Positions 1 to 16,276 of a DNA stretch of 64,000 bases are shown here, one piece after another (the first letter of the stretch is position 1; the number at the start of each line of letters is the position of its first letter). The position numbers were made by a program, and so were the translations under genes. Source of the DNA: Promethearchaeota archaeon (GTDB taxonomy: Archaea; Asgardarchaeota; Lokiarchaeia; Sigyniarchaeales; SOKP01); the NCBI GenBank assembly GCA_016840165.1, contig JAEOSU010000076.1:98664-162663 (forward strand). Direction: 5' to 3'. Below the pieces are notes generated by a model that worked only from the letters and a program-made list of their open reading frames with translations, was not told the origin of the DNA and searched no databases.

Positions 1-361
1 GAATAAATAATGAAAAAATAAACTCATGAAGTTTTGGTATTTCTTCATATGAATCATCTGAATCAGCATAATCATCAATTAGAGGCATTGCTTCGAAATA
101 ATCATTTAAAAAAGCACTAGAAATTCCTTTATGTGGTTTTCTATTCAAAGGAATCTTCTTCTTTAAAATTAAATTATCGGGTTCTTTTTTAGATTCTATG
201 ATTGTATAGAGAGTAACACTAGGTAAAACAGCAACACTACTTATAATTAGGATTGAATTTAGAAGGATATGATCTATATTAAAGAAAATAAAGAGAAGAT
301 AGATTAAAATAAAGAATATATAGAGAATGATTGTACCAAATAATAGATGCTTTAGTTTCAT
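1..361 (-). CDS. Hypothetical membrane protein, runs off the window edge (MKLKHLLFGTIILYIFF...)
   Basis: Manual translation from ATG at 361: open to base 1, with two hydrophobic N-terminal segments then a polar domain. Absent from the ORF track because it has no stop in the window. Confidence 0.6.
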   Translation of the reverse strand, partial: MKLKHLLFGTIILYIFFILIYLLFIFFNIDHILLNSILIISSVAVLPSVTLYTIIESKKEPDNLILKKKIPLNRKPHKGISSAFLNDYFEAMPLIDDYADSDDSYEEIPKLHEFIFSLFI

Positions 362-446: not shown

Positions 447-1122
447 TTATTCCTCATTGATTAATTTTCTAACCTCAAAATATTTGTCTTCATTTAAGCA
501 AAATAATACTATTCTATTTTGTCTTCTAATGGTTATCAGTTGTAATTTTTGTAAAATCTTAAAATACTTTTTTATAGAATTATAATTTCTTTTTAGCCCA
601 TTTGCAATTTCGGTGATTTTAAATTCTTTTAAAGAATTTTTCTGTATGAAACTTATTATTTCTTTGACGATACTTTGTTTTAAATAGAAATGTAATTCAT
701 CAAACTCAGGATTTAAATCAAATTTGAAAAATACTCGTTGATTTTCAAATTTTTTAGATCTTACAAATTGAAATTTCTCTAAACAAGATAAATGCCATAA
801 TACTTGATTACTTCCAATGTTTATTGCTTTCATAATCTCATTAATATTTGATGGTGTTTGTTTAATTAAATTAAAGATTTCATTTCTTACTGGATGTTCT
901 ATGATGTTATTCTTCATCAATTTAGTCCCAGGAATAAGGATTTTTTTTTTTAATAAGCTTCTTTATGATTTTTTCGATGCTATTTTTATTTATATTTGGG
1001 TTTAACTTTACCCTATTACTAATGAATAAGACGATATCTTCAATTGAAAAGAATGGTTTCTTTTTTAGATATTCTTTAATTAAGTCAAAAACAATATCTT
1101 CGGCATAATTGGGGGATTTCAT
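447..1122 (-). pseudogene. Winged-helix (ArsR-like double HTH) protein split by a one-base frameshift in an A11 run
   Basis: ORFs 922-1122 and 447-920 fuse into ...LIKKKILIPGTKLMKNNIIEHPVRNEIF... if one T is removed from the T11 run at 941-951. Two HTH-like segments in the C-terminal part. Confidence 0.7.
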
Positions 1123-1379
1123 TAGTGTATACTTCTAATATGTTAGATGAAATGAATTTATTAATGATTTCTTTTATCTAAAATGTTATCTTTCAGTTCA
1201 TATTAATTACTAACCATTTATTCAATTTATAAGTATATTTTCTTAGATTAATAATGGTATTTATGTCTTTATTCAAGAATTTTCAAAATCATTCCAATTG
1301 GTTTTATAATATCATTTTAGCATGTTCTTAGTAAGTTTAAAAATAAACTTTCAAAAAATAAAAAAAAGAAGTGAAAAAA

Positions 1380-1715
1380 ATGAGTTTTGATAATGATTTT
1401 GATGAGGAATTGGAACCATTAAAGTCTAAAACGCCTACAAGTAAAACACCTTCAGCAGGAAAGAAACTGACTCTATATTTTATGTCAACTATCGGTCCTG
1501 GTGAAAAGAAAGAAAAGTTAACCGTAAATGATGCTAATCAAGTCAGTGATATTAAAGAAACCTTAGGAAATTTATACGGTCTTGACCCTGATGAATTTCA
1601 TTTATCATCTGGTGGAGTTACAATGGATGAAAGTAATCAATTAAAAGATTATAACGTAAATGATGGAGACGACATTCTTTTAATTCCTGCGAGTACGGCG
1701 GGTAGACTTATATAA
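1380..1715 (+). CDS. Ubiquitin-like (beta-grasp) modifier with N-terminal tail and C-terminal ...IPASTAG-RLI
   Basis: Ub-like pattern (VSDIKETL...L...G..M...QLKDYNVNDGDDILLI); first gene before E1/E2/JAB; ATG 5 nt after AGTGA. Confidence 0.85.
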   Translation: MSFDNDFDEELEPLKSKTPTSKTPSAGKKLTLYFMSTIGPGEKKEKLTVNDANQVSDIKETLGNLYGLDPDEFHLSSGGVTMDESNQLKDYNVNDGDDILLIPASTAGRLI

Positions 1716-1737
1716 TTTTCTATATAATTTATAATAA

Positions 1738-1769
1738 GAAGGCTTTAGTCCTTCATTTATTTTTTTTTT
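1738..1769 (+). terminator. Hairpin plus T-tract between Ubl and E1 genes
   Basis: GAAGG-CTTTAGT-CCTTC stem-loop followed by ATTTA and a T10 run. Confidence 0.45.
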
Positions 1770-1791
1770 ATTAATAATTAAGGTGATAGGA

Positions 1792-3015
1792 TTGGAGAAA
1801 AATTCAGATTTTTTTGGTAAAGAACTGTCAGTGGAGGAACGAGACTTATATGACCGCCAATTTCGCCTTGAAGGTTGGTCACAAAAGGTAGTAAAAAATT
1901 CGAGAGTCCTAATAGCAGGTGTAGGAGGTTTAGGTTGTGAAACTGCTAAAAATTTAGCTATGTTAGGTGTGGGTCATATCGATCTTGTTGATTTAGATAT
2001 AATTGAACATTCTAATTTAAACCGACAAATACTTTTTACTGGTGCTCAAATAGGAGAATCCAAAGCGATTGTAGCTGCTAGAAAATTGAGGGAAGTAAAT
2101 CCAAATATAACTATAAAAGGGTATTCTACCTCTTTAGAACGATTAAATCCTGAAATTTATCAAGCCGTTGATATTGTGGTTGGTGGTCTTGATTCGATGA
2201 TTGCTCGTTTAAACTTAAATGCGCAGTGTATAAGATTTAGAAAACCTTTAGTTGATGGGGGCGTATCTGGTTATCATGGGCATATCTATACCGTGTTTCC
2301 TTATAAAAATGCCTGCTATGAGTGTAACCCATTACCTATTGGCGAAAGTGATGAAATGGCAGCTTGTACTGTAGTTGGAATTCCCCGGAAAAGAATTCAC
2401 TGTGTTTTTAAAGGGGATATGGCTTTTAGAGAAAAATTTGATAGAGATCCAAATCCAAAAGATATGAATGATATAAAATATATTCAAAAAGCGGCAAATG
2501 AATTAGTAAATAAACATAATTTCTTACCCGAATACACTGAAGATGATATTGTAAAAATTATTGATAGACATGATCCAGGATTAATTACAGTTAATGCCGT
2601 TATTTCTGCTTTACAGTCTCATGAGACTATAAAGATTATTCATTGGAAAAAAGGGCATAAAGGATTAGGAGCGCCCATACAGGATTATGTTATCTTTAAT
2701 GGTATTACCATGAAATTATATCATATTGAAAAAAAAAGAAACCCAGAATGTTCTCAATGTGGAAGAAATGCTCGACGTGTTATTATAAAAATGAAAGCAC
2801 AGTCACCTTGCATGAATATTATAAAAATTTTAAATCATCATGGGTATAACTTAGAGGAAAATTTTGAACCCATTATTACACTATTGGATTTCAATGATAT
2901 ACAAGTTATTGATTTAGAAAAGAATGCTAGAGAAAATGATTTACGTAATTTAGAATTTTTAATTGTAGCTGGGTTTGTTGGTGGAGAAATTTATGTAACA
3001 CTAAAATTAAAATGA
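1792..3015 (+). CDS. E1 ubiquitin-like activating enzyme (ThiF/UBA family)
   Basis: YDRQ, GVGGLG, SNLNRQ, CYEC/CSQC zinc pairs, catalytic-Cys motif ACTVVGIPRKRIHC; TTG start 5 nt after GGTGA. Confidence 0.92.
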   Translation: MEKNSDFFGKELSVEERDLYDRQFRLEGWSQKVVKNSRVLIAGVGGLGCETAKNLAMLGVGHIDLVDLDIIEHSNLNRQILFTGAQIGESKAIVAARKLREVNPNITIKGYSTSLERLNPEIYQAVDIVVGGLDSMIARLNLNAQCIRFRKPLVDGGVSGYHGHIYTVFPYKNACYECNPLPIGESDEMAACTVVGIPRKRIHCVFKGDMAFREKFDRDPNPKDMNDIKYIQKAANELVNKHNFLPEYTEDDIVKIIDRHDPGLITVNAVISALQSHETIKIIHWKKGHKGLGAPIQDYVIFNGITMKLYHIEKKRNPECSQCGRNARRVIIKMKAQSPCMNIIKILNHHGYNLEENFEPIITLLDFNDIQVIDLEKNARENDLRNLEFLIVAGFVGGEIYVTLKLK

Positions 3016-3101
3016 ATTTATGATCAAAATAAATATTTATAATAATTGTCTTATCAAAAACTATAAGAATTGAAAATTAAAAAAAAAGGGGTTGAAAAAA
3101 A

Positions 3102-3629
3102 TTGAGTTTAAGAAGTAGTCGTATTTCTCGAGATTTTGCGGGTTTAAAAAAGATGCTTAAGAATGGAACCATGGTTCAATTAAAACCATTTAATCCAAAA
3201 AAAAAAAGTATTGATCATTTAGCTATTACTATCAGAGGTCCCAAAGGAACAGCTTATGCAGGGGGTCTTTTTAAATTAGAAATGAAATTCCCTGCTCAAT
3301 ATCCTAAGCAGCCTCCATTTGTGAGACTCCATACACCAATTTGGCATCCAAATTTTTGGCCTAAACCAAGTGAATATAAAGGACAAAGAAATATCTGTTT
3401 AGCATTAGTTGATCCTTCTTTAGTTGGTAAAAAAGGAGGTTGGAGTCCTTCGAAAACAGCAGTCACTATAGTGCAAGCAATAATTGCTATGTTAAATACA
3501 CGCGGAAAATATGTTAATCCAACAGATGTATTTAATAAAAAAGCAGCAATCGAAATGATAAAGGATCAAAAATTCTTCGAGAAAAAAGTTAAAAACCTAG
3601 TAAAGAAGTATGCAAAAGAAAAGTGGTGA
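3102..3629 (+). CDS. E2 ubiquitin-conjugating enzyme (UBC fold)
   Basis: GPKGTAYAGGLFKL, FPAQYPKQPP, HPN...ICL (catalytic Cys), WSP motifs. Confidence 0.93.
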   Translation: MSLRSSRISRDFAGLKKMLKNGTMVQLKPFNPKKKSIDHLAITIRGPKGTAYAGGLFKLEMKFPAQYPKQPPFVRLHTPIWHPNFWPKPSEYKGQRNICLALVDPSLVGKKGGWSPSKTAVTIVQAIIAMLNTRGKYVNPTDVFNKKAAIEMIKDQKFFEKKVKNLVKKYAKEKW

Positions 3630-3636
3630 AAATAAT

Positions 3637-4443
3637 ATGAAAAATGATGAAATTCCTGATGATCCAATTAGAGAAGCCATTAAACAAAAAATAAAAAACA
3701 AAATCAAAAAAGAATTACTTAAAGAAATATATTCGGAATTACAATTAGAAGAAGAAATTACAAACGAGATAACCACTGAAATAATTAGTGATCCTTTATT
3801 AGAGCATTCCGAGATCAATAAAGCTAATCTTGAACCGATTCCTTCAGAGATCGTAGAAACTTCTGCTAGTAATGGTAAATTTAAAGCACCTATAGCTATA
3901 AATGTAAAATCCATTCTAAAAATTGCCAGTCACGCATTAAAATATGCTCATTCAAAAATCCCAAGAGAAGAATGGGTTGAGGTTATTGGCTTACTTGCTG
4001 GAACATTTGATAAAATTCATAACGTTTTATATATTGAAGATGTTTATCCAATGGGACATGGTAATGCTGTGTATGCGGAAATTAAAGATTATAAAAATTA
4101 TGTAAGAGCTTTTAAAGATATCAAAAAAAGTAGATTGTTTATATGTGGCTGGTATCACTCTCATCCATCCTATGGATGCTTTATGTCTAGAGAAGATTTA
4201 GGTACCCAATCGCGGTATCAAACATTATGGGATAAAGCAATAGCACTTGTAATTGATCCTTATCAGATAAATGGAAAATCATTGGGTTTTGAAATTTATC
4301 GTGCGAATTTTAAAAAACGAGAGTGGTTTTCTGTACCTTTTGAGATTAATGGAAATTTAGATGTGGGAATGTTACCTGAAATTTTGGATTTTATGAACCC
4401 AATTATAGAGGGGAAGGCTGCTTATTTAGAATATGATGAATAA
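3637..4443 (+). CDS. MPN+/JAMM metalloprotease (Rpn11/CSN5-like)
   Basis: EVIGLL...GWYHSHPSYGCFMSRED...IDP, a complete JAMM motif; ATG 7 nt after GGTGA; ~85 aa N-terminal extension. Confidence 0.92.
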   Translation: MKNDEIPDDPIREAIKQKIKNKIKKELLKEIYSELQLEEEITNEITTEIISDPLLEHSEINKANLEPIPSEIVETSASNGKFKAPIAINVKSILKIASHALKYAHSKIPREEWVEVIGLLAGTFDKIHNVLYIEDVYPMGHGNAVYAEIKDYKNYVRAFKDIKKSRLFICGWYHSHPSYGCFMSREDLGTQSRYQTLWDKAIALVIDPYQINGKSLGFEIYRANFKKREWFSVPFEINGNLDVGMLPEILDFMNPIIEGKAAYLEYDE

Positions 4444-4463
4444 AATCAAAGGTTGATTAATCT

Positions 4464-5603
4464 ATGGTAAAAAAGAAAAATTTGATAATCCTTCTTTTTG
4501 TCTTAATTGGTTTTGTCCATGGGTTGATCTCAATTTCATTAAATATTTTTCTAACTTGGGTATTTATCGGTTTGTGGATATTTTTCATAATAAAAATTTT
4601 CGAAAACATAAAACAACATCGCGAATTTAATTCACCTTATAATACGGCATTTTTTGTTATTCTTCCTTTATTTATTGGGATCTTTTATTCTATGTGGGGC
4701 TACTATACGAATTTATTTGGTGAAAATCTCTTTATGAACTCCAATATCTATTTTAGTTTATGGAGCTTAATTTTTGGATTTCCATTTGTTTTATATGGAT
4801 CTTATTCATTATATCGTTGCTTTAAAAAGTATAATGTGATCTATTTTGGGAGAAGAGCTGTAAAGGCTAAAGTGGTTGGATATCTACTATCATTCTCAAT
4901 AATTTTTGGTATTATTCTTTATTGGATAATTTTTTACTCTATTATTGAGTTTTTTAATTATTTATTAATTCCTTTACATTTCTCTTTAGATTTAAATCTT
5001 TTAATCATTTTTATATTGACTATTCTAATTCTTATTTTATTTGGATTTTTAAATCCTCAAAGACGATTATCTCCTTTAACTCGAGAATATATAGCACAGC
5101 GTACTCGAAGAATTAATGCTCTCACAAGACCTAGTATTCAAAATCAGAGAGTAAAGACAACTAACCGATCAACTTCTCCCTCAACTAGAACAGTGACCCG
5201 ATCAACTACTACTTCCTATAGATCCTCAAGGATCACTCCAAAATCTAAAAGCCATGCGAGGAGAACAACAAGAACCACTGAAACTAAAAAGACAAAAACT
5301 AATCTAAAAATTCGAAATATAAATGCTTATAAGCCAAAAGCGGCATTTCTGACAGAAGAAGATTTCAAATGCATTTTCTGTTTTAATTTGCCAAAATTTC
5401 CCGAAGATAAAGGTAGAGGGATCATTTTATGCCCTAATTGTAGATATCCTTCCCACGCAGATGAGTTTAAAGACTGGTTAAAAACTTCAAATTTATGTTC
5501 ACGTTGTAGCGCACCCATTCCCTCTAGCTTTAGAAGAAATCCAAGAATTATTAGTATAAAAAATTATATTTCTATCTATAAACAAATTTTAAAAAAAACA
5601 TAA
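4464..5603 (+). CDS. Polytopic membrane protein with C-terminal variant RING finger (candidate E3 ligase)
   Basis: About 6 hydrophobic helices, an S/T/R-rich linker, then C-x2-C-x16-C-x2-C-x4-H-x2-E-x3-W-x6-C-x2-C; last gene of the Ubl-E1-E2-JAB run. Confidence 0.75.
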   Translation: MVKKKNLIILLFVLIGFVHGLISISLNIFLTWVFIGLWIFFIIKIFENIKQHREFNSPYNTAFFVILPLFIGIFYSMWGYYTNLFGENLFMNSNIYFSLWSLIFGFPFVLYGSYSLYRCFKKYNVIYFGRRAVKAKVVGYLLSFSIIFGIILYWIIFYSIIEFFNYLLIPLHFSLDLNLLIIFILTILILILFGFLNPQRRLSPLTREYIAQRTRRINALTRPSIQNQRVKTTNRSTSPSTRTVTRSTTTSYRSSRITPKSKSHARRTTRTTETKKTKTNLKIRNINAYKPKAAFLTEEDFKCIFCFNLPKFPEDKGRGIILCPNCRYPSHADEFKDWLKTSNLCSRCSAPIPSSFRRNPRIISIKNYISIYKQILKKT

Positions 5604-5635
5604 TTAGATTGCATAATTCAAGTATTATCAAAGAA

Positions 5636-6595
5636 TTATTTATTTGTTCCAATAATTCTTCTTAATTCTCCAACCGTAGTTTTTAATTCTGAATATACAT
5701 TATGGGGATGGATGGATTCATAACTTTCAATAGTGAATTTAATTTTAGACTGATCCTCCAAATTTGGAAAATCACTCAGGATGAATCTTTTTGCCATTTG
5801 TCTGACTACATCCTCAGAAAAAAGTGGATTTAGATGAGCTGTTCGAACTAGCCTTGCCTCTTCTGGTCTTTTTAGAACTGACTGCATTTTTCCCGACATT
5901 GAACCTTCTATGATATCAATTATATCTAAAACATCAATTTTATGATTGTTTAAATCTTTAATCTGCACAATAATAGTTCCTTTTGATCGCTGATTATGAG
6001 AACTAAAAGGTAAGATATTGAGGAGTTTCTTAATATCTTCTTCCCGCAGATTGATATCTCTTCTATTTTTAATAATTTCTTCAGCATACTCTTGGCTCAT
6101 TTCTTTTGCACAAGGGCAAACCGTCATACCAACGGCACTTGCCCCAATATAGTAGTTAAAATCAATCTCTCCTGATTCATCCTTACGGGCTTTTACAAAA
6201 GAACTTATATCATATGACTTTTGGATATTTCTTTGTTGTTCATCTTTAGTTTGAACGACTATTTTGCCTTCAAGTTTTACATAGACTTTTCTGGTATAAG
6301 GATGCTTTTTGAGAAGTTCTCGTGCAATTCTATCTCCTACCACTTCTACAGATGGTGTTGGTTTGAAAATTACCTCATTTATGATCTCTTCGATAGTTTC
6401 AGAGGTGCGAGACATATGAATCCCTCGTTGTTTGGCAGGAAGAGATATCAGTGCAGAGATCTTAGGATAAAAGGAGTAGCGCTTATTTTCTTGAATGATC
6501 TCGACTTTTTTTTCGACACCAACAATCCCAACTTTATCGATAGGAATATCGATTTTTGAGCCAGAATTCTGTAAATCTTTTTTAAAGTGGCTAAT
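5636..6595 (-). CDS. mptA: GTP cyclohydrolase MptA (FolE2 family); start extended to ATT at 6595
   Basis: GIHMSR, TVCPC, HNQR, ESIHPHN motifs. The frame is open 60 codons upstream of the track's ATG and includes KKDLQN...DKVGI. Confidence 0.88.
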   Translation of the reverse strand: MSHFKKDLQNSGSKIDIPIDKVGIVGVEKKVEIIQENKRYSFYPKISALISLPAKQRGIHMSRTSETIEEIINEVIFKPTPSVEVVGDRIARELLKKHPYTRKVYVKLEGKIVVQTKDEQQRNIQKSYDISSFVKARKDESGEIDFNYYIGASAVGMTVCPCAKEMSQEYAEEIIKNRRDINLREEDIKKLLNILPFSSHNQRSKGTIIVQIKDLNNHKIDVLDIIDIIEGSMSGKMQSVLKRPEEARLVRTAHLNPLFSEDVVRQMAKRFILSDFPNLEDQSKIKFTIESYESIHPHNVYSELKTTVGELRRIIGTNK

Positions 6596-10802: not shown

Positions 10803-12680
10803 TCATTTCCTTGCTTGCTCTTGAAGCAGATTTAGAATGAAATGTTGGGTAATTAAGTCAGAACTTATTTTTCCAAGAACGATTCCCTCTTTAACTACAG
10901 GCATTGCTGAAATTTTATATTGCTCAAGTTCTCTGACTATTTCTAGCAAACTCAAGTCGGGAGATGCTGTAATTACATCCTTCGTCATAATATTTTCAAG
11001 ATTAGTAGCACTAATTCCTTCAGCAATAGCTTTCGTTATATCCCAATCTGTTAATACTCCAACGAGTTTCTGATTTGAAAGAACTGCAACTATTCCACTA
11101 TTTTCATTTATCATTAATTCAGCAACTTGTTGCATACTACTTTGAACATCAATAACTGGAATAGTAATCATTATATCTTTTGCTGTTCTCAGACTTTCCT
11201 TTCGAGAAAGGCGTTGAAGGCTTATCTGTTCAGCCGCAGCAGATGGTAACAGGTCCTGATTTGAGGTTAAAATTTCGACTAACTCATTCATGTTATGTTG
11301 AATCACATTTTCTCTATATTCTCCTCCAGCTTCTAATCGTTCCATCGAGAGTTTAGCAAATTCCTTAGCATGATCCTTTAACCATATCTCAACCTTATCT
11401 GGATGTCCTAATAAGTTGTTTGGGATTTGAAGATTATCTGGTGTTTTTATTATATGTTCTTGTGCTGCAAAAATTACTCCTCCAGAATTAACGAGATAAT
11501 CATTCGCAATCATAATTCCTTTTCCTCGATAAACCACTTGCTCCATAACTGTTCTTGCCGCTTTCCTATTGGGATCAGGAGAGTAGGTATTCGCTCCTTC
11601 CACTATTAATGACCAATTTCCAATACGATCGACCGTCATTGAAGGATTATCAATGTTACTTACCCCCAAATAGTTAAATATTGGTGCTGCAGGAACTAAA
11701 CAAAAAGCATTTTCACGAAGTAGGTTATTAGGATTATTTGAATATTTGATTGGATGTTTGTGGCCTTTAGATATAATTTTACTCTTAAAATAATTAAGTG
11801 ATACTCTCTTCTCTTCTACCCATATATCAAATAGTTCTTTAACTGGTAATCCATCCTCATCATAAAGATAGCCCTCTAAATCGCTTATTCCAATTACTTT
11901 CGCCTTTGGAAGACGCTCGGAAAGTATTCTAGCTGCATGGGCTCCCACAGCTCCAAAGCCTTGAATAATCAAGCTCACTTCTTCTGGTTCTGGAACTTCC
12001 AATGTAGAAAATTGGGAAAGCACAGTTAGACGTGGCATTATTTTTAATAAAGTTTGCAAAGCAATTACGACTCCTCCAGCCGCAGCACCAAGCTCATCAA
12101 TTCTATTTCCTCCCATATCTGCAGTTTTAGATACAGCACTATCAATTCCATTTTCAATTGCAATAGTTTTCATATCCATATCATTTGTACCTACATCTGG
12201 ACCGGGTACATATACATTTTTATATCTATTAATTAATCTTGCAAAATGGCGTACAATCTCGGTGTGTTGATCTGGAGGTATATCTCGTTCTGCTATAATT
12301 CCAGACTTACCTCCTCCATAAGGAAGATTGGCTGCTGCATTCTTTAAAGTCATTCCTCTTGCTAGGTTGTATATATCTGAAGGTACTAAATCTGGAAGCA
12401 TTCTAATTCCTCCCATACTAGGTTTGCCCATTGATAAATTATCAACGACTAAATATCCACCTACTTCTAGTTCGGAGTTTTTATCCCATATACAGGCTAC
12501 AAGCTGTGGCCCTAATTTATCACTTATAATCCCAATGCTAGACAGTAAGTTTTCATCAGTTTTAGTAAATTCTAAATAACACAGACCATTTTCTTCGAAA
12601 AGACGGTTTTTAAGGATATTTTTGGGTAGATGTTCTTTTAGAAAACTTTCCATATTTTTAGGAATCATTTTTACCACCAA
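10803..12680 (-). CDS. Glu/Leu/Phe/Val dehydrogenase fused to a C-terminal CBS pair
   Basis: GMTLKNAAANLPYGGGK, GPDVGT, QGFGAVG, EGAN, NSGGV; the last ~125 aa are two CBS repeats. Confidence 0.85.
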   Translation of the reverse strand: MVVKMIPKNMESFLKEHLPKNILKNRLFEENGLCYLEFTKTDENLLSSIGIISDKLGPQLVACIWDKNSELEVGGYLVVDNLSMGKPSMGGIRMLPDLVPSDIYNLARGMTLKNAAANLPYGGGKSGIIAERDIPPDQHTEIVRHFARLINRYKNVYVPGPDVGTNDMDMKTIAIENGIDSAVSKTADMGGNRIDELGAAAGGVVIALQTLLKIMPRLTVLSQFSTLEVPEPEEVSLIIQGFGAVGAHAARILSERLPKAKVIGISDLEGYLYDEDGLPVKELFDIWVEEKRVSLNYFKSKIISKGHKHPIKYSNNPNNLLRENAFCLVPAAPIFNYLGVSNIDNPSMTVDRIGNWSLIVEGANTYSPDPNRKAARTVMEQVVYRGKGIMIANDYLVNSGGVIFAAQEHIIKTPDNLQIPNNLLGHPDKVEIWLKDHAKEFAKLSMERLEAGGEYRENVIQHNMNELVEILTSNQDLLPSAAAEQISLQRLSRKESLRTAKDIMITIPVIDVQSSMQQVAELMINENSGIVAVLSNQKLVGVLTDWDITKAIAEGISATNLENIMTKDVITASPDLSLLEIVRELEQYKISAMPVVKEGIVLGKISSDLITQHFILNLLQEQARK

Positions 12681-14692: not shown

Positions 14693-16276
14693 TTATTCAT
14701 CTTGAATATATGGTTTATGCATCTCTAGACAGATTTGAGCTCTTTCTAATTCTCTTCCTAAATAGTTAAGATGTTCAAGATTTTGAGTAAGATCTAAGCC
14801 AATAAATTTCTTACATAATGCTTCAGCATTAGTGCCGATGAGAGTTTTTAAGAGTTTATTTTCATTGGAATAAAATTGTAAATATATTTTTTTATCGTAT
14901 TGCTCAACATAGATTCGAAAATAGCCATTTTTATCGGGAGTATAAGGGATATTTTCCGATTTCACATTTAAAACGTTATAAAGATCGATTTTTGGTATCT
15001 TCTGACGGGTCTTTCCTTTTGATCGAAAAACCATAATTCCTTGGTTAATAGGAGGAGATTTTCGATATTGGGCTAAAAAGTTCAATTTCACACTTTCTTT
15101 TAGTTCTGAGATTCCTCCCATTAATTTTACACTGTGCTCTACCGAGAAAAGGATCCCAATTCCTAACTCAATGGCAATACTTGCTAGAAGTCCATTTACT
15201 CCTACTGAATCAATATCCATTAGTTCAACCACATTTGAAATACCAAAGAAAAGAGGTAATTGAAATGATTTATTTTTCTTTTCACCAACCATTTTATTAT
15301 ACAAAAAATAAGACTCTAAAGAATTGCAAATCCCAGGCGATATAGGAGTTTCTAATAGTGGATCCGCAATCAGTTTTTGAAATCCTTTGTCTTGCAAGAT
15401 TTTGGTTAAATTAAATAAATTCTCAACTCTATCCTTTGGATTTCTGGGAAAATAAGCATTCTTAATGTCTGTTGGCAAAATAACTATTGGTATAGTTTTA
15501 GGAATATCTAAAAACTCTTTATAATTACCTAAATCAAAGCTAAGGATCATATCAATATCAGAATTGATAGCGGCCATAATCTCCGATTTATCCATTGAAT
15601 CTATACTGAGTAACACATCAAAATTACGGCGAATAGTATCAATAATATTAGGGATTTTTTCTGGATATACTTTATTTGCCACACATCCAATATCAATAAT
15701 ATCTGCTCCAGATTCAATATAGTGTTTCACCTTCTTAAGAATATTTTTTTCCGTTCTTTCGGTACAATTTACTATTTCTGCAATAATAGGAGGAGGGAGA
15801 TGAGGGGAGATCATTATGTCTGATTTCTTTTTATTTATATAAAACGAAGTAGTACTAATTTCTTTCTCAGCAATTTTTTTTTGTTCCTCTAAAATCGTAT
15901 AATATTCTTTTTCACCAGACATTTCAATCAACTTATTAGCAGGTACTTTTCCTGAAAGCGTTATATTTTCAAGATTCTTGAGAATAAAGGGTAAATCTGA
16001 GGCAAACTCGGGACCTTTTTTTACTTCAACCCCATATTTTTGTTCTAACGATTTTGCATCCCATTGTACAAATCCCGGCAATAAAATTAAATCATAATCA
16101 GAAAGAGATACCTTATTAAGGATGTCCATAACGATATCGTTAGTAAGAAAAGCAGAAATCGTTATTGGTGCTTTAAATACATCTATCTTATATTTTTTAA
16201 TTGGTTTGATTACTTTTGAGATAATAGGAAAACTGCTTGTACCGGTGATGATTAATATGTGCTTATCCAAAATCAC
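14693..16276 (-). CDS. Dihydropteroate-synthase-like protein (archaeal, pterin-binding barrel, DUF4346-like C-terminus)
   Basis: IIAEIV, GADIIDIG, SIDS, ADPLL, PLFFGISNVVELMDIDSVGVN, HLNYLGREL. Confidence 0.85.
   Translation of the reverse strand: MILDKHILIITGTSSFPIISKVIKPIKKYKIDVFKAPITISAFLTNDIVMDILNKVSLSDYDLILLPGFVQWDAKSLEQKYGVEVKKGPEFASDLPFILKNLENITLSGKVPANKLIEMSGEKEYYTILEEQKKIAEKEISTTSFYINKKKSDIMISPHLPPPIIAEIVNCTERTEKNILKKVKHYIESGADIIDIGCVANKVYPEKIPNIIDTIRRNFDVLLSIDSMDKSEIMAAINSDIDMILSFDLGNYKEFLDIPKTIPIVILPTDIKNAYFPRNPKDRVENLFNLTKILQDKGFQKLIADPLLETPISPGICNSLESYFLYNKMVGEKKNKSFQLPLFFGISNVVELMDIDSVGVNGLLASIAIELGIGILFSVEHSVKLMGGISELKESVKLNFLAQYRKSPPINQGIMVFRSKGKTRQKIPKIDLYNVLNVKSENIPYTPDKNGYFRIYVEQYDKKIYLQFYSNENKLLKTLIGTNAEALCKKFIGLDLTQNLEHLNYLGRELERAQICLEMHKPYIQDE

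What the first reader, a model, noticed from the sequence alone, without database searches (positions are those of the whole stretch)
1380..1715. Ubl with a single C-terminal glycine, a 3-residue propeptide and a SUMO-like N-terminal tail
Seen: the protein ends ILLIPASTAG-RLI with no GG, and ~28 acidic and S/T/P/K-rich residues (SFDNDFDEELEPLKSKTPTSKTPSAG) precede the fold. Known: single-Gly ends occur in UFM1 (…IIPRDRVG|SC, same spacing from the IP to the Gly) and ATG8, and disordered Lys-bearing N-tails are typical of SUMO. Inference: the operon's JAMM removes RLI to expose AG, and tail lysines (the SKTP-x-SKTP duplication) could support chains. This would be a distinct modifier class rather than ubiquitin.
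Basis: partly seen in the sequence, partly recalled or inferred. Interest (0 to 1): 0.75.

Follow-up and report, generated by a model that had tools for sequence, protein, structure and literature searches.

The report
Asgard ubiquitin tag ending Ala-Gly
This Lokiarchaeon gene encodes a ubiquitin-family protein tag whose reactive end is always Ala-Gly instead of Gly-Gly and whose conserved N-terminal tail carries a lysine motif also found on a neighbouring rod-shaped protein. It is a distinct, testable variant of the archaeal forerunners of eukaryotic ubiquitin, not a new kind of modifier.

Summary
Window 1380-1715 encodes a 111-aa protein ending ...LLIPASTAG-RLI, with a disordered 27-residue acidic, KSKTP-bearing N-tail before a beta-grasp fold.

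- **Family:** by sequence and fold it is a ubiquitin-family protein (Pfam PF00240 above cut-off; best structural match is Caldiarchaeum ubiquitin). G108 aligns with Ub G76 and A107 with G75.
- **Conservation:** all 121 close homologues, and every full-length soluble relative down to 35% identity, keep P-x-S-x-A-G. What follows the Gly is 0-6 variable residues.
- **The RLI tail:** it arose from a 1-nt deletion that reads into conserved intergenic DNA.
- **Precursors:** head-to-tail di- and tri-Ubl precursors exist.
- **Operon:** Ubl-E1-E2-JAMM-membrane RING recurs in at least six families of the phylum. The enzymes are ubiquitin-type, not UFM1-type.
- **JAMM docking:** a structure model places the Ubl tail in the JAMM active site (0.76 against 0.00 for controls), but a similar complex is already solved.
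- **Tail motif:** KSKTP also sits at both ends of an adjacent coiled-coil protein. This suggests a SUMO-like acceptor or recognition site.

This is a new variant of archaeal ubiquitin, not a separate class and not UFM1. The scan has noted this family before in other genomes.

The parts
1380..1715 (+). Ubl gene (111 aa plus stop): ubiquitin-family modifier precursor ending STAG-RLI
   Evidence: ORF and translation. PF00240 scores 29.7 bits against a cut-off of 25.4. 830 homologues.
1380..1460 (+). Disordered N-terminal tail, residues 1-27: an acidic/aromatic stretch followed by the lysine motif
   Evidence: pLDDT below 50 for residues 1-21. The tail is conserved in 29 orthologues and, in outline, down to 35% identity.
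1422..1451 (+). K15-S-K17-T-P-T-S-K22-T-P24: duplicated [ST]-K-T-P motif, a candidate acceptor or recognition site
   Evidence: K17, T18 and P19 are invariant in alignment A1. K-x-P is present in 120/120 close units and 27/36 distant units. The same motif sits at both termini of the adjacent coiled-coil protein in 12 loci.
1461..1688 (+). Beta-grasp core, residues 28-103, with a 3-residue insertion (P40-G41-E42) in the b1-b2 loop and Ser at the Ub I44 position
   Evidence: AlphaFold2 model. Foldseek top hits are Caldiarchaeum ubiquitin 6fno_D, 6fj7 and 6fnn_C. VIA-align gives Z 13-13.9 to ISG15, Ub and NEDD8. Residue mapping to ubiquitin.
1686..1703 (+). C-terminal tail P103-A-S-T-A107-G108; G108 is the predicted reactive residue (Ub G76) and A107 corresponds to Ub G75
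   Evidence: P103, A107 and G108 are three of only five invariant columns in a 36-sequence alignment at 35-63% identity. 121/121 close homologues end P-x-S-[TS]-A-G. Mapping.
1704..1715 (+). R109-L-I111 and TAA: a dispensable C-terminal extension, encoded by the conserved AT-rich flank (CTTATATAA)
   Evidence: Tail lengths among 121 close homologues are 0 (35), 1 (2), 2 (59) and 3 (25). The KLI form is the no-tail form minus one base, and RLI is KLI with an A>G change.
1738..1770 (+). Hairpin (GAAGGC...GTCCTTC) followed by a T-run between the Ubl and E1 genes: a possible partial terminator that would let the tag out-express its enzymes
   Evidence: Pattern scan. Terminator-like sites in the region are not above chance overall (3 found, 2.0 expected), so this is inference only.
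1783..3015 (+). E1 (ThiF family) with a CTVVGIPRKRIHC catalytic-Cys segment, CxxC pairs and a C-terminal domain. The true start is probably the TTG at 1792.
   Evidence: PF00899 at 1.2e-59. Best solved relatives are UBA2, UBA1 and UBA3 (1e-39 to 1e-35); UBA5 reaches only 7e-17. Orthologues align from residue 4.
3102..3629 (+). E2 (UBC fold) with HPN...C
   Evidence: PF00179 at 9.8e-26. Canonical E2s are the best solved relatives.
3610..4443 (+). JAMM/MPN+ metalloprotease, Rpn11-like, with a conserved charged N-terminal helix
   Evidence: PF01398 at 2.3e-13. Best solved relative is Caldiarchaeum Rpn11 (6fjv, 6fju). E124, H183, H185, S193 and D196 are invariant in 30 orthologues. Predicted complex with the Ubl.
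4464..5603 (+). Polytopic membrane protein with a C-terminal RING-like zinc finger (presumed E3)
   Evidence: ORF. Only weak Pfam zinc-ribbon and RING hits. It holds the last position of the cassette in all loci compared.
2..361 (-). 5' part of a membrane-anchored paralogue whose Ubl domain ends IALIPRNKK (no Gly); the rest lies upstream of the window
   Evidence: L002:1483-2265(-). Relatives P0194, P0244 and P0245 also lack the Gly.

Best explanation
The gene encodes the modifier of a Lokiarchaeial ubiquitin-type conjugation cassette (Ubl, E1, E2, JAMM, membrane RING).

Proposed mechanism:
- The precursor must lose R109-L-I111 so that G108 becomes the free C-terminus.
- The single-chain E1 adenylates G108 and takes it as a thioester.
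- The HPN-Cys E2 receives it.
- The membrane RING protein directs it to lysines of targets.
- The co-encoded Rpn11-like JAMM most likely does the trimming. It would also cleave the head-to-tail poly-Ubl precursors found in relatives, and reverse conjugation.

The penultimate Ala is a fixed, selected feature of this subfamily, not drift. The N-terminal tail stays on the mature tag. Its KSKTP lysine motif is a short linear motif recognised by the system. It is most likely an acceptor-site consensus, which would allow chains on the tag itself and mark the neighbouring coiled-coil protein as a dedicated substrate, in the manner of SUMO's consensus lysine.

Shown here: fold, family, conservation pattern, synteny, intact catalytic motifs and motif sharing. 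Inferred: cleavage, activation, conjugation and the role of the lysine motif.
For: **Family and fold**
- PF00240 scores above its cut-off, and 34 of 36 diverse members hit it.
- The AlphaFold2 model is a beta-grasp.
- Foldseek's top three matches are Caldiarchaeum ubiquitin.
- VIA-align gives Z 13-13.9, rmsd 1.1-1.5 A over 73-77 residues, to ISG15, Ub and NEDD8.

**Reactive end**
- G108 aligns with Ub G76 and A107 with G75.
- 121/121 close homologues end P-x-S-[TS]-A-G plus 0-3 residues.
- In a 35-63% identity alignment only G39, G79, P103, A107 and G108 are invariant, and tails run 0-6 residues.
- P0126 (three units) and P0127 (two units) join complete units directly after ...STAG. P0126 was seen in two assemblies.
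- Tails are frames of one conserved 3' flank.

**Machinery**
- The E1 is closest to UBA2, UBA1 and UBA3. The E2 is canonical. The JAMM is closest to CsRpn11 and its E...HxH...S..D motif is invariant.
- The same cassette with an AG Ubl occurs in GTDB families f1, f2, f7, f16, f18, f24 and f30.
- The family is present in 123 of 301 sampled genomes of the phylum.
- Precedent: Caldiarchaeum pro-ubiquitin carries 9 residues after GG, is refractory to E1 until Rpn11 removes them, and then conjugates (PMC5654768; PMC6043591).

**Predicted JAMM(95-277)+Zn+Ubl(28-111) complex**
- Score 0.76 against 0.00 for the best of 3 controls. That mark was reached by 58 of 80 solved complexes and 2 of 110 mismatched pairs.
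- The runs share at least 93% of contacts, and the partner's pLDDT is at least 84.
- The interface includes Ubl residues 100-110 and JAMM E124, H183 and S193-D196.
- A similar complex (6fnn, 6fno) is already solved, so this pass may reflect likeness rather than binding.

**Tail motif**
- K17, T18 and P19 are invariant in close orthologues.
- K-x-P is present in 120/120 close units and 27/36 distant units.
- The adjacent coiled-coil protein carries [IK][KR][STE]KTP near its N-terminus and at its extreme C-terminus, in this genome and in 11 further loci from families f1, f2 and f18.
- The motif is not enriched genome-wide (SKTP 9 observed, 9.4 expected).
Against: - No biochemical or expression data exist for this protein.
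- 35 of 121 close orthologues, and many cassettes (L007, L045, L047, L059, L062, L064, L070), have no tail yet keep the JAMM. Propeptide removal is therefore not what maintains the JAMM.
- An Ala next to the reactive Gly is unusual for canonical E1s. From general knowledge, not tested here, it could slow activation or isopeptidase cleavage.
- Ser replaces Ub I44, so eukaryote-type ubiquitin readers may not apply.
- The acceptor-site reading of KSKTP rests only on motif sharing. A Thr-Pro phospho-site or a docking motif would fit equally well.
- The genome holds a second E1/E2 pair (contig C53) and a second soluble AG Ubl, so the pairing of tags with enzymes is not settled.
Confidence: 0.75

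Rival explanations
1. It is an archaeal UFM1 homologue, or a separate single-Gly modifier class, which works like UFM1 (…VG|SC) rather than like ubiquitin.
For: It has a single C-terminal Gly with a short extension. Koestlbacher et al. (PMC12962969) report structure-based 'Ufm1 homologues' in nine Asgard clades. Some of their hits had multiple hit regions, some were not full length, and some had long disordered termini. That description would fit this family (poly-Ubl forms, fusions, N-tail), but I could not check which proteins they meant.
Against: - The Pfam Ufm1 model PF03671 hits neither this protein nor any of 36 relatives. It has no match at E<=0.001 in 301 genomes of the phylum, and only a spurious hit in this genome.
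- The E1 is far closer to UBA1, UBA2 and UBA3 than to UBA5.
- The E2 has the HPN motif that UFC1 lacks.
- UFC1 (PF08694) and UFSP (PF07910) were not found in this 99.7%-complete genome. The PF07910 search matched none of its control genomes either, so that blank is weak.
- The protease in the operon is a JAMM, not a Cys peptidase.
- The P-to-Gly spacing is the same as in ubiquitin.
Confidence: 0.07
2. The tag is conjugated through G108, but the RLI-type extensions are not removed by the operon JAMM. Either another peptidase trims them, or tail-bearing alleles are crippled while the upstream paralogue (which ends STAG-stop) carries the function. On this reading the JAMM acts only as a deconjugating enzyme.
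For: - Tails arise from 1-nt indels or stop-codon changes over a conserved flank, and they differ between close relatives.
- 35 of 121 close orthologues have no tail.
- A mature-ended paralogue lies 1.9 kb upstream.
- The JAMM is kept in tail-less cassettes.
Against: - Tail-bearing forms are the majority (86 of 121), and the rest of the protein stays under strong constraint.
- Poly-Ubl precursors need an endoprotease that cuts after AG.
- The nearest characterised JAMM does exactly this job.
- The model puts residues 100-110, spanning the G108-R109 bond, at the JAMM metal site.
Confidence: 0.15
3. It is a non-conjugated ubiquitin-like domain protein (an adaptor or shuttle) or a sulphur carrier, and the conserved AG is structural.
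For: A membrane-anchored paralogue of the same family clearly cannot be conjugated, since it has no Gly. The genome also has a MoeB-like E1 with a GG-ended small Ubl on contig C4.
Against: - The invariant Gly lies at, or within 6 residues of, the C-terminus in every soluble member.
- Head-to-tail precursors exist.
- The gene is constantly linked to an E1 with a catalytic-Cys segment, an HPN-Cys E2, a RING protein and an isopeptidase.
- Sulphur carriers pair with MoeB-type E1s without an E2.
Confidence: 0.04

Closest known systems
Caldiarchaeum subterraneum ubiquitin operon (pro-ubiquitin, E1-like, E2-like, small RING finger protein, Rpn11 homologue; PMC5654768, PMC6043591)
   Same: A beta-grasp ubiquitin made with a C-terminal extension. 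An Rpn11-type JAMM sits in or next to the operon, with a single-chain E1, a UBC E2 and a RING E3. CsUb is the top structural match to this model and CsRpn11 is the top solved relative of the JAMM.
   Different: CsUb ends TVGG plus 9 residues and has no N-terminal tail, and its E3 is a small soluble RING protein. Here the end is STAG plus 0-6 residues. There is a conserved 27-residue tail with a KSKTP motif, the RING sits on a polytopic membrane protein, and there are extra paralogues (a second soluble tag and a membrane-anchored Ubl).
Classical Asgard GG-ubiquitin operons (e.g. the Helarchaeia cascade of bioRxiv 10.1101/2023.07.25.550441; loci L052-L054 here)
   Same: Same phylum and the same E1/E2/RING logic. 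Short, variable residues follow the reactive Gly (GG+W, GG+Y, GG-stop).
   Different: Those ubiquitins are 78-81 aa, have no tail, end R-T-x-G-G, and sit beside a 76-82 aa soluble RING protein. Their E1 and E2 are only 30-39% identical to the ones here. The AG family was not found in those genomes.
SUMO (eukaryotic), especially SUMO-2/3
   Same: A flexible N-terminal tail carrying a lysine in a short consensus that also occurs in substrates (in SUMO, psi-K-x-E, used for chains; general knowledge). 23 of 36 family members hit the SUMO-like Rad60-SLD model at E<=0.01, though the window protein scores below that model's cut-off. UBA2 is nominally the best solved relative of the E1.
   Different: SUMO ends GG. 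Its E1 is a heterodimer and its proteases are Cys peptidases. The motif here is K-T-P, not psi-K-x-E. No function for the motif has been shown.
UFM1
   Same: A single C-terminal Gly preceded by a small hydrophobic residue, and a 2-3 residue extension that must be removed (general knowledge).
   Different: There is no sequence match to the Ufm1 family. The enzymes are ubiquitin-type, not UBA5, UFC1 or UFSP.
Eukaryotic polyubiquitin precursors
   Same: Relatives P0126 and P0127 are head-to-tail repeats of complete units, with one or two extra residues after the last unit.
   Different: The units are only about 50% alike. Each includes its own N-terminal tail, and the junction is AG|A or AG|S rather than GG|M.

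Membership tests
Ubiquitin family (Pfam PF00240) | Sequence match to the family model above its curated cut-off | tested here: met
   29.7 bits against a cut-off of 25.4. 34 of 36 diverse relatives match. A profile of the family finds Ub, ISG15, CsUb, FAT10 and ubiquilin in the PDB.
Ubiquitin family (Pfam PF00240) | Beta-grasp fold | tested here: met
   The model has b-b-a-b-b(3-10)-b topology with core pLDDT 79-88. Foldseek probability is 1.00 to CsUb and Ub. Z is 13-13.9.
Conjugatable ubiquitin-type modifier | Reactive Gly at the Ub G76 position, at or just before the C-terminus | tested here: met
   G108 corresponds to G76. It is invariant, with a tail of 0-6 residues.
Conjugatable ubiquitin-type modifier | Di-glycine (GG) C-terminal motif | tested here: not met
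   A107 is invariant in 121/121 close homologues. It is also invariant in the 36-row alignment A2, but those rows were chosen among relatives that carry the xxP-x3-x-G end, so that count is not independent.
Conjugatable ubiquitin-type modifier | Dedicated E1 with catalytic Cys, UBC-type E2 with HPN-Cys, and an E3 in the same locus | tested here: met
   The cassette is conserved in seven families of the phylum.
Conjugatable ubiquitin-type modifier | ATP-dependent thioester and isopeptide linkage to lysine | not testable with these tools
   Needs biochemistry or proteomics.
Eukaryotic ubiquitin proper | L8-I44-V70 hydrophobic patch and K48/K63 chain lysines | tested here: not met
   I44 is Ser76, K48 is Val80 and K63 is Asp95. 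Only K27 (K59) and K11 (K43) have lysine counterparts.
Archaeal Rpn11-processed pro-ubiquitin (Caldiarchaeum type) | C-terminal extension beyond the reactive Gly, plus a co-located active JAMM related to CsRpn11 | tested here: met
   The extension is RLI. The JAMM's best solved relatives are 6fjv and 6fju, and its catalytic residues are invariant. The predicted complex scores 0.76 against 0.00 for controls, with the caveat that a similar complex is solved.
Archaeal Rpn11-processed pro-ubiquitin (Caldiarchaeum type) | Cleavage exactly after the reactive Gly by the JAMM | not testable with these tools
   Needs an in vitro cleavage assay read by intact mass (expected loss 382.5 Da).
UFM1 | Sequence match to Pfam Ufm1 (PF03671) | tested here: not met
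   There is no hit for this protein or for 36 relatives, and none in 301 genomes of the phylum at E<=0.001.
UFM1 | UBA5-type E1, UFC1 E2 and UFSP Cys protease | tested here: not met
   The E1 matches UBA5 at only 7e-17, against 1e-39 for UBA2. The E2 has the HPN motif. PF08694 and PF07910 have no match in this genome; the PF07910 controls matched nowhere, so that blank is weak.
UFM1 | Fold closer to UFM1 than to ubiquitin | tested here: inconclusive
   No UFM1 chain appears among the rows shown by Foldseek or VIA-align. Absence from a list does not exclude the family, and no UFM1 sequence or model was available for a direct comparison.
SUMO | Match to the Rad60-SLD/SUMO model above its cut-off, a GG end, and a heterodimeric E1 | tested here: not met
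   Rad60-SLD scores 20.8 bits against a cut-off of 23.8. The end is AG. The operon has a single E1 gene.
SUMO | Flexible N-terminal tail with a consensus lysine also found in substrates | tested here: inconclusive
   The tail and the shared K-T-P motif are present. Whether the lysine is an acceptor is unknown.

The most novel reading that the evidence does not exclude
Lokiarchaeia and several other Asgard lineages run a second, SUMO-like branch of ubiquitin-type tagging. K-S-K-T-P would be the acceptor-site consensus read by the E2 or the membrane RING. The modifier's own tail carries this site, so chains can form. The adjacent coiled-coil protein, with the motif at both ends, would be the dedicated substrate. 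The fixed Ala-Gly end would insulate this pathway from other ubiquitin-type enzymes and proteases in the same cell. If true, consensus-directed conjugation and the divergence of modifiers would predate eukaryotes.
Probability: 0.3. Interest if true: 0.8.

Novelty: new variant of a known kind. Interest (0 to 1): 0.62.

Why it matters
- **Evolution of the ubiquitin system.** Asgard ubiquitin systems are used to reconstruct how eukaryotic ubiquitin, SUMO and NEDD8 arose. In a large part of the phylum, including Lokiarchaeia, the operon-encoded tag is not a GG ubiquitin. It is a fixed Ala-Gly variant with a conserved lysine-bearing tail, poly-tag precursors, domain fusions, a membrane RING and a probable built-in substrate.
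- **Practical consequence for proteomics.** Di-Gly remnant proteomics would miss this modification. Trypsin would leave a 19-residue remnant, DYNVNDGDDILLIPASTAG, adding 1943.911 Da.
- **A tractable test.** The system offers a compact in vitro test with five proteins plus one candidate substrate. It would show whether consensus-site, chain-forming tagging existed before eukaryotes.

Tried and rejected
- **Expression.** No RNA holder was listed for window 1300-5700; all 20 runs are metagenomic DNA. Read laying was therefore not used. This says nothing about expression.
- **UFM1 by fold.** No UFM1, URM1, ATG8 or ATG12 chain appears among the rows shown by Foldseek (top 50), by VIA-align on Foldseek's 1000 best, or by VIA-align against 48,161 representatives (top 50, Z>=11.1). 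This does not exclude those families. I had no tool-supplied UFM1 sequence for a direct profile or structure comparison and did not type one from memory.
- **UFM1 in the literature.** The supplement of PMC12962969 is not held, so I could not see which Asgard proteins its authors call Ufm1 homologues.
- **Ala-Gly end in the literature.** Searches for an explicit description of an Ala-Gly-ended Asgard ubiquitin found none in the held library. That is not proof that none exists.
- **Rod-protein homologues.** The large-database search was swamped by low-complexity coiled-coil words, giving one hit. I used synteny-guided extraction from genomes instead.
- **Genome-wide motif enrichment.** There is none: SKTP 9 observed against 9.4 expected, and K[ST]K[TS]P 4 against 3.2. 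The motif's significance rests on conservation and on sharing between neighbours.
- **Weak Ufm1-model hit.** The hit on contig C53 is an aspartokinase ACT region and was rejected.
- **Promoter scan.** The sigma-70 type scan is not informative for an archaeon (24 found, 25.4 expected).
Full report
**1. Observation**

The + strand frame from the ATG at 1380 to the TAA at 1713-1715 encodes 111 residues. The product ends ...DDILLIPASTAG-RLI, and there is no GG at the C-terminus. Residues 2-27 are acidic and then rich in S, T, P and K (SFDNDFDEELEPLKSKTPTSKTPSAG).

An AlphaFold2 model built on 29 orthologues gives a beta-grasp between residues 29 and 103, with core pLDDT of 79-88. Residues 1-21 and 109-111 score below 50.

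The window has about 30% G+C. Named relatives come from Promethearchaeota (Lokiarchaeia-type) MAGs.

**2. What the protein is**

- Pfam places it in the ubiquitin family: PF00240 scores 29.7 bits against a cut-off of 25.4. The SUMO-like Rad60-SLD model falls below its cut-off, and there is no Ufm1 hit.
- phmmer against the PDB aligns residues 46-101 to ubiquitin 14-69.
- Adding a ubiquitin unit to the family alignment gives this mapping: G108=G76, A107=G75, T106=R74, A104=R72, P103=L71, S76=I44, V80=K48, D95=K63 and K59=K27. There is a 3-residue insertion in the b1-b2 loop.
- The 'UFM1-like' spacing between Pro and Gly is therefore simply the ubiquitin spacing.
- The three best Foldseek matches are Caldiarchaeum subterraneum ubiquitin, free and bound to its Rpn11.
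- VIA-align gives Z 13-13.9 to ISG15, ubiquitin and NEDD8, with rmsd 1.1-1.5 A over 73-77 residues.

**3. Conservation of the end**

- All 121 close homologues end P-x-S-[TS]-A-G, followed by 0 (35), 1 (2), 2 (59) or 3 (25) residues.
- An exhaustive HMMER search over 50%-identity representatives found relatives down to 35% identity. Every full-length soluble one keeps [LIVM][LIV]-[IL]-P-x-[ST]-x-A-G near its end.
- In a 36-sequence alignment at 35-63% identity, only G39, G79, P103, A107 and G108 are invariant, and the tails run from 0 to 6 residues. Those rows were chosen among relatives carrying that end, so the unbiased counts are the 121/121 above and the listing.
- The only family members without the Gly are truncated entries and a membrane-anchored paralogue class ending ...IPxRKK.
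- The Ala is as fixed as the Gly, so it is a selected feature.

**4. Origin of RLI**

I compared the DNA after the Gly codon in about 40 related loci. The tail-less form reads GGG TAA ACT TAT ATA ATT TTC TTC. The KLI form is this sequence minus one base (GGT AAA CTT ATA TAA). The window's RLI is KLI with one A>G change. The YF and TFK forms are other frames of a related flank.

The 'propeptide' is therefore read-through into conserved, TATA-like intergenic DNA and is not a conserved peptide. Such accidents are tolerated in most lineages, which implies that something reliably removes whatever follows the Gly.

**5. Poly-tag precursors and fusions**

- P0126 (372 aa) is three complete units joined directly after ...STAG, each unit being tail, KSKTP, beta-grasp and STAG, with VL at the very end. 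P0127 has two units.
- The units of P0126 are only about half identical to one another, so this is not an assembly artefact. The ORF occurs in two assemblies.
- Other relatives place the same module at the exact C-terminus of a CPKC zinc-ribbon protein or of a P-loop ATPase.

**6. The machinery**

Downstream lie four genes:

- an E1 (ThiF) with a CT....P....HC catalytic segment;
- an E2 with HPN...C;
- an MPN+ JAMM;
- a polytopic membrane protein with a C-terminal RING-like finger.

The E1 is closest to UBA2, UBA1 and UBA3 (1e-39 to 1e-35). It is far from UBA5 (7e-17). The E2 is a canonical UBC. The JAMM's best solved relative is the Caldiarchaeum Rpn11 homologue, and its E124, H183, H185, S193 and D196 are invariant in 30 orthologues.

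The cassette Ubl-E1-E2-JAMM-TM/RING, always with an AG-ended Ubl, recurs in loci from families f1, f2, f7, f16, f18, f24 and f30 of the phylum. The Ubl family is present in 123 of 301 sampled genomes. It was not found in, for example, 76 genomes of family f9.

Genomes without it carry the classical operon instead: a 76-82 aa soluble RING protein, a 78-81 aa tail-less ubiquitin ending R-T-x-G-G(+0/1), an E2 and an E1. The phylum therefore holds two cassette types, and this one is the less described.

**7. Does the JAMM trim it?**

In Caldiarchaeum, the pro-ubiquitin (GG plus 9 residues) cannot be activated until the Rpn11 homologue removes the extension (PMC5654768; PMC6043591).

A complex prediction of JAMM(95-277), Zn and Ubl(28-111) scored 0.76 against 0.00 for the best of three controls. 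That mark was reached by 58 of 80 solved complexes and 2 of 110 mismatched pairs. The runs share at least 93% of contacts, and the partner's pLDDT is at least 84. Ubl residues 100-110 touch JAMM E124, H183 and S193-D196.

Because a similar complex is already solved, this shows likeness and does not prove binding. Because tail-less cassettes keep the JAMM, its conserved role must be deconjugation and/or precursor cleavage. Trimming would be a by-product.

**8. The N-terminal tail**

The tail is not just low-complexity sequence. F3, K17, T18 and P19 are invariant, and F7, D8, S16, K22 and P24 are nearly so, in close orthologues. A K-x-P motif precedes the fold in 120/120 close units and 27/36 distant units.

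It begins ...IREKTP and ends ...IKSKKPSKY. Its orthologues in 11 further loci from families f1, f2 and f18 all carry one or two [KE]KTP near the N-terminus and one to three [IK][KR][ST]KTP at the extreme C-terminus.

The motif is not enriched genome-wide. Two unrelated neighbouring proteins therefore share a conserved short linear motif centred on a lysine. The simplest reading is an acceptor or recognition site, as with the SUMO consensus lysine that also sits in the SUMO-2/3 tail (general knowledge). A Thr-Pro phosphorylation switch or a docking motif are equally open.

**9. UFM1**

- The Pfam Ufm1 model matches nothing in 301 genomes of the phylum.
- UFC1 and UFSP models match nothing in this genome.
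- A 2026 paper reports structure-based 'Ufm1 homologues' in nine Asgard clades (PMC12962969). Its remarks on multiple hit regions and disordered termini would fit this family, but I could not verify the identity.
- On the evidence here, the protein is a ubiquitin-family variant whose single-Gly end converges on the UFM1 pattern.

**10. Verdict**

This is a new variant of the known archaeal ubiquitin system, not a new class. The points most worth testing are the fixed Ala-Gly end, the poly-tag precursors, and the lysine motif shared with a probable substrate. Earlier notes of this scan describe the same family in other genomes.

Noticed in passing
L002:1027-1437 (+), i.e. G000:C58 about 1.9 kb upstream of the window start: A second soluble paralogue (136 aa) with a longer acidic tail (repeated FDEE, then ATKTP). 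It ends exactly ...LLIPASTAG-stop. It is present in most relatives as a 125-163 aa 'Ubl1'.
   Followed up: partly
window 2-361 (-), continuing to L002:1483-2265: A 260-aa protein with two N-terminal membrane helices and a C-terminal Ubl domain of the same family. It ends IALIPRNKK with no Gly, so it cannot be conjugated. It is conserved next to the cassette (L007, L009, L057-L059, L063, L070).
   Followed up: partly
window 447-1122 (-): The winged-helix regulator, divergent from the operon, is split into 66-aa and 157-aa ORFs at an A11 run (around 932-942). Orthologues are single proteins of 220-224 aa (L007, L009, L057-L059). This could be a sequencing error or a homopolymer switch.
   Followed up: partly
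L056:8510-9613 (-) in this genome; orthologues in L007, L009, L045, L057-L059, L064-L066, L069, L070: A coiled-coil 'rod' protein (281-470 aa, no Pfam family) next to the Ubl locus. It carries [KE]KTP near its N-terminus and one to three [IK][KR][ST]KTP at its extreme C-terminus, the same motif as in the Ubl tail. It is a candidate dedicated substrate or partner.
   Followed up: yes
L005:59-1177 (P0126); P0127: Head-to-tail tri- and di-Ubl precursors of this family. Each unit includes its own tail and ends STAG. This is an archaeal counterpart of polyubiquitin genes.
   Followed up: partly
L009:8001-8825; L069:13703-14470 and 14765-15658; L045:10072-11814: The STAG Ubl module is fused to the C-terminus of a CPKC zinc-ribbon domain protein (255-341 aa forms) and of a P-loop ATPase (about 565-580 aa forms). 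This implies that whole proteins might be activated at their C-terminal Gly.
   Followed up: no
L049:8080-9663 (+) and 10854-11363 (-) (G000 contig C53): A second E1 (527 aa, ACTLKGLPRNRNHC) and a second HPN-Cys E2 (169 aa) lie beside a 1643-aa coiled-coil protein, with no Ubl gene seen nearby. It may serve one of the two AG tags.
   Followed up: partly
L001:1486-1746 (-) (G000 contig C4), about 5 kb from a 251-aa MoeB-like E1: A small ubiquitin-fold frame ends ...ATQAGGA (GG plus one residue). It has no ATG, GTG or TTG start before its beta-grasp part (the only in-frame ATG lies near its 3' end). It is probably a SAMP/Urm1-type carrier with an unusual start.
   Followed up: no
window 1704-1770: The DNA just after the Gly codon (CTTATATAATTTTCT...) is conserved across genera even though the reading frame over it changes. 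It looks like an archaeal TATA element and is followed by a hairpin and a T-run. It could be an internal promoter or a partial terminator separating tag and enzyme expression.
   Followed up: partly
window 1783-1800 and 3610-3640: Start codons are uncertain. E1 orthologues align from residue 4, suggesting the TTG at 1792. Many JAMM orthologues are 9 residues shorter, suggesting a start at M10 (3637), which would remove the overlap with the E2 gene.
   Followed up: no
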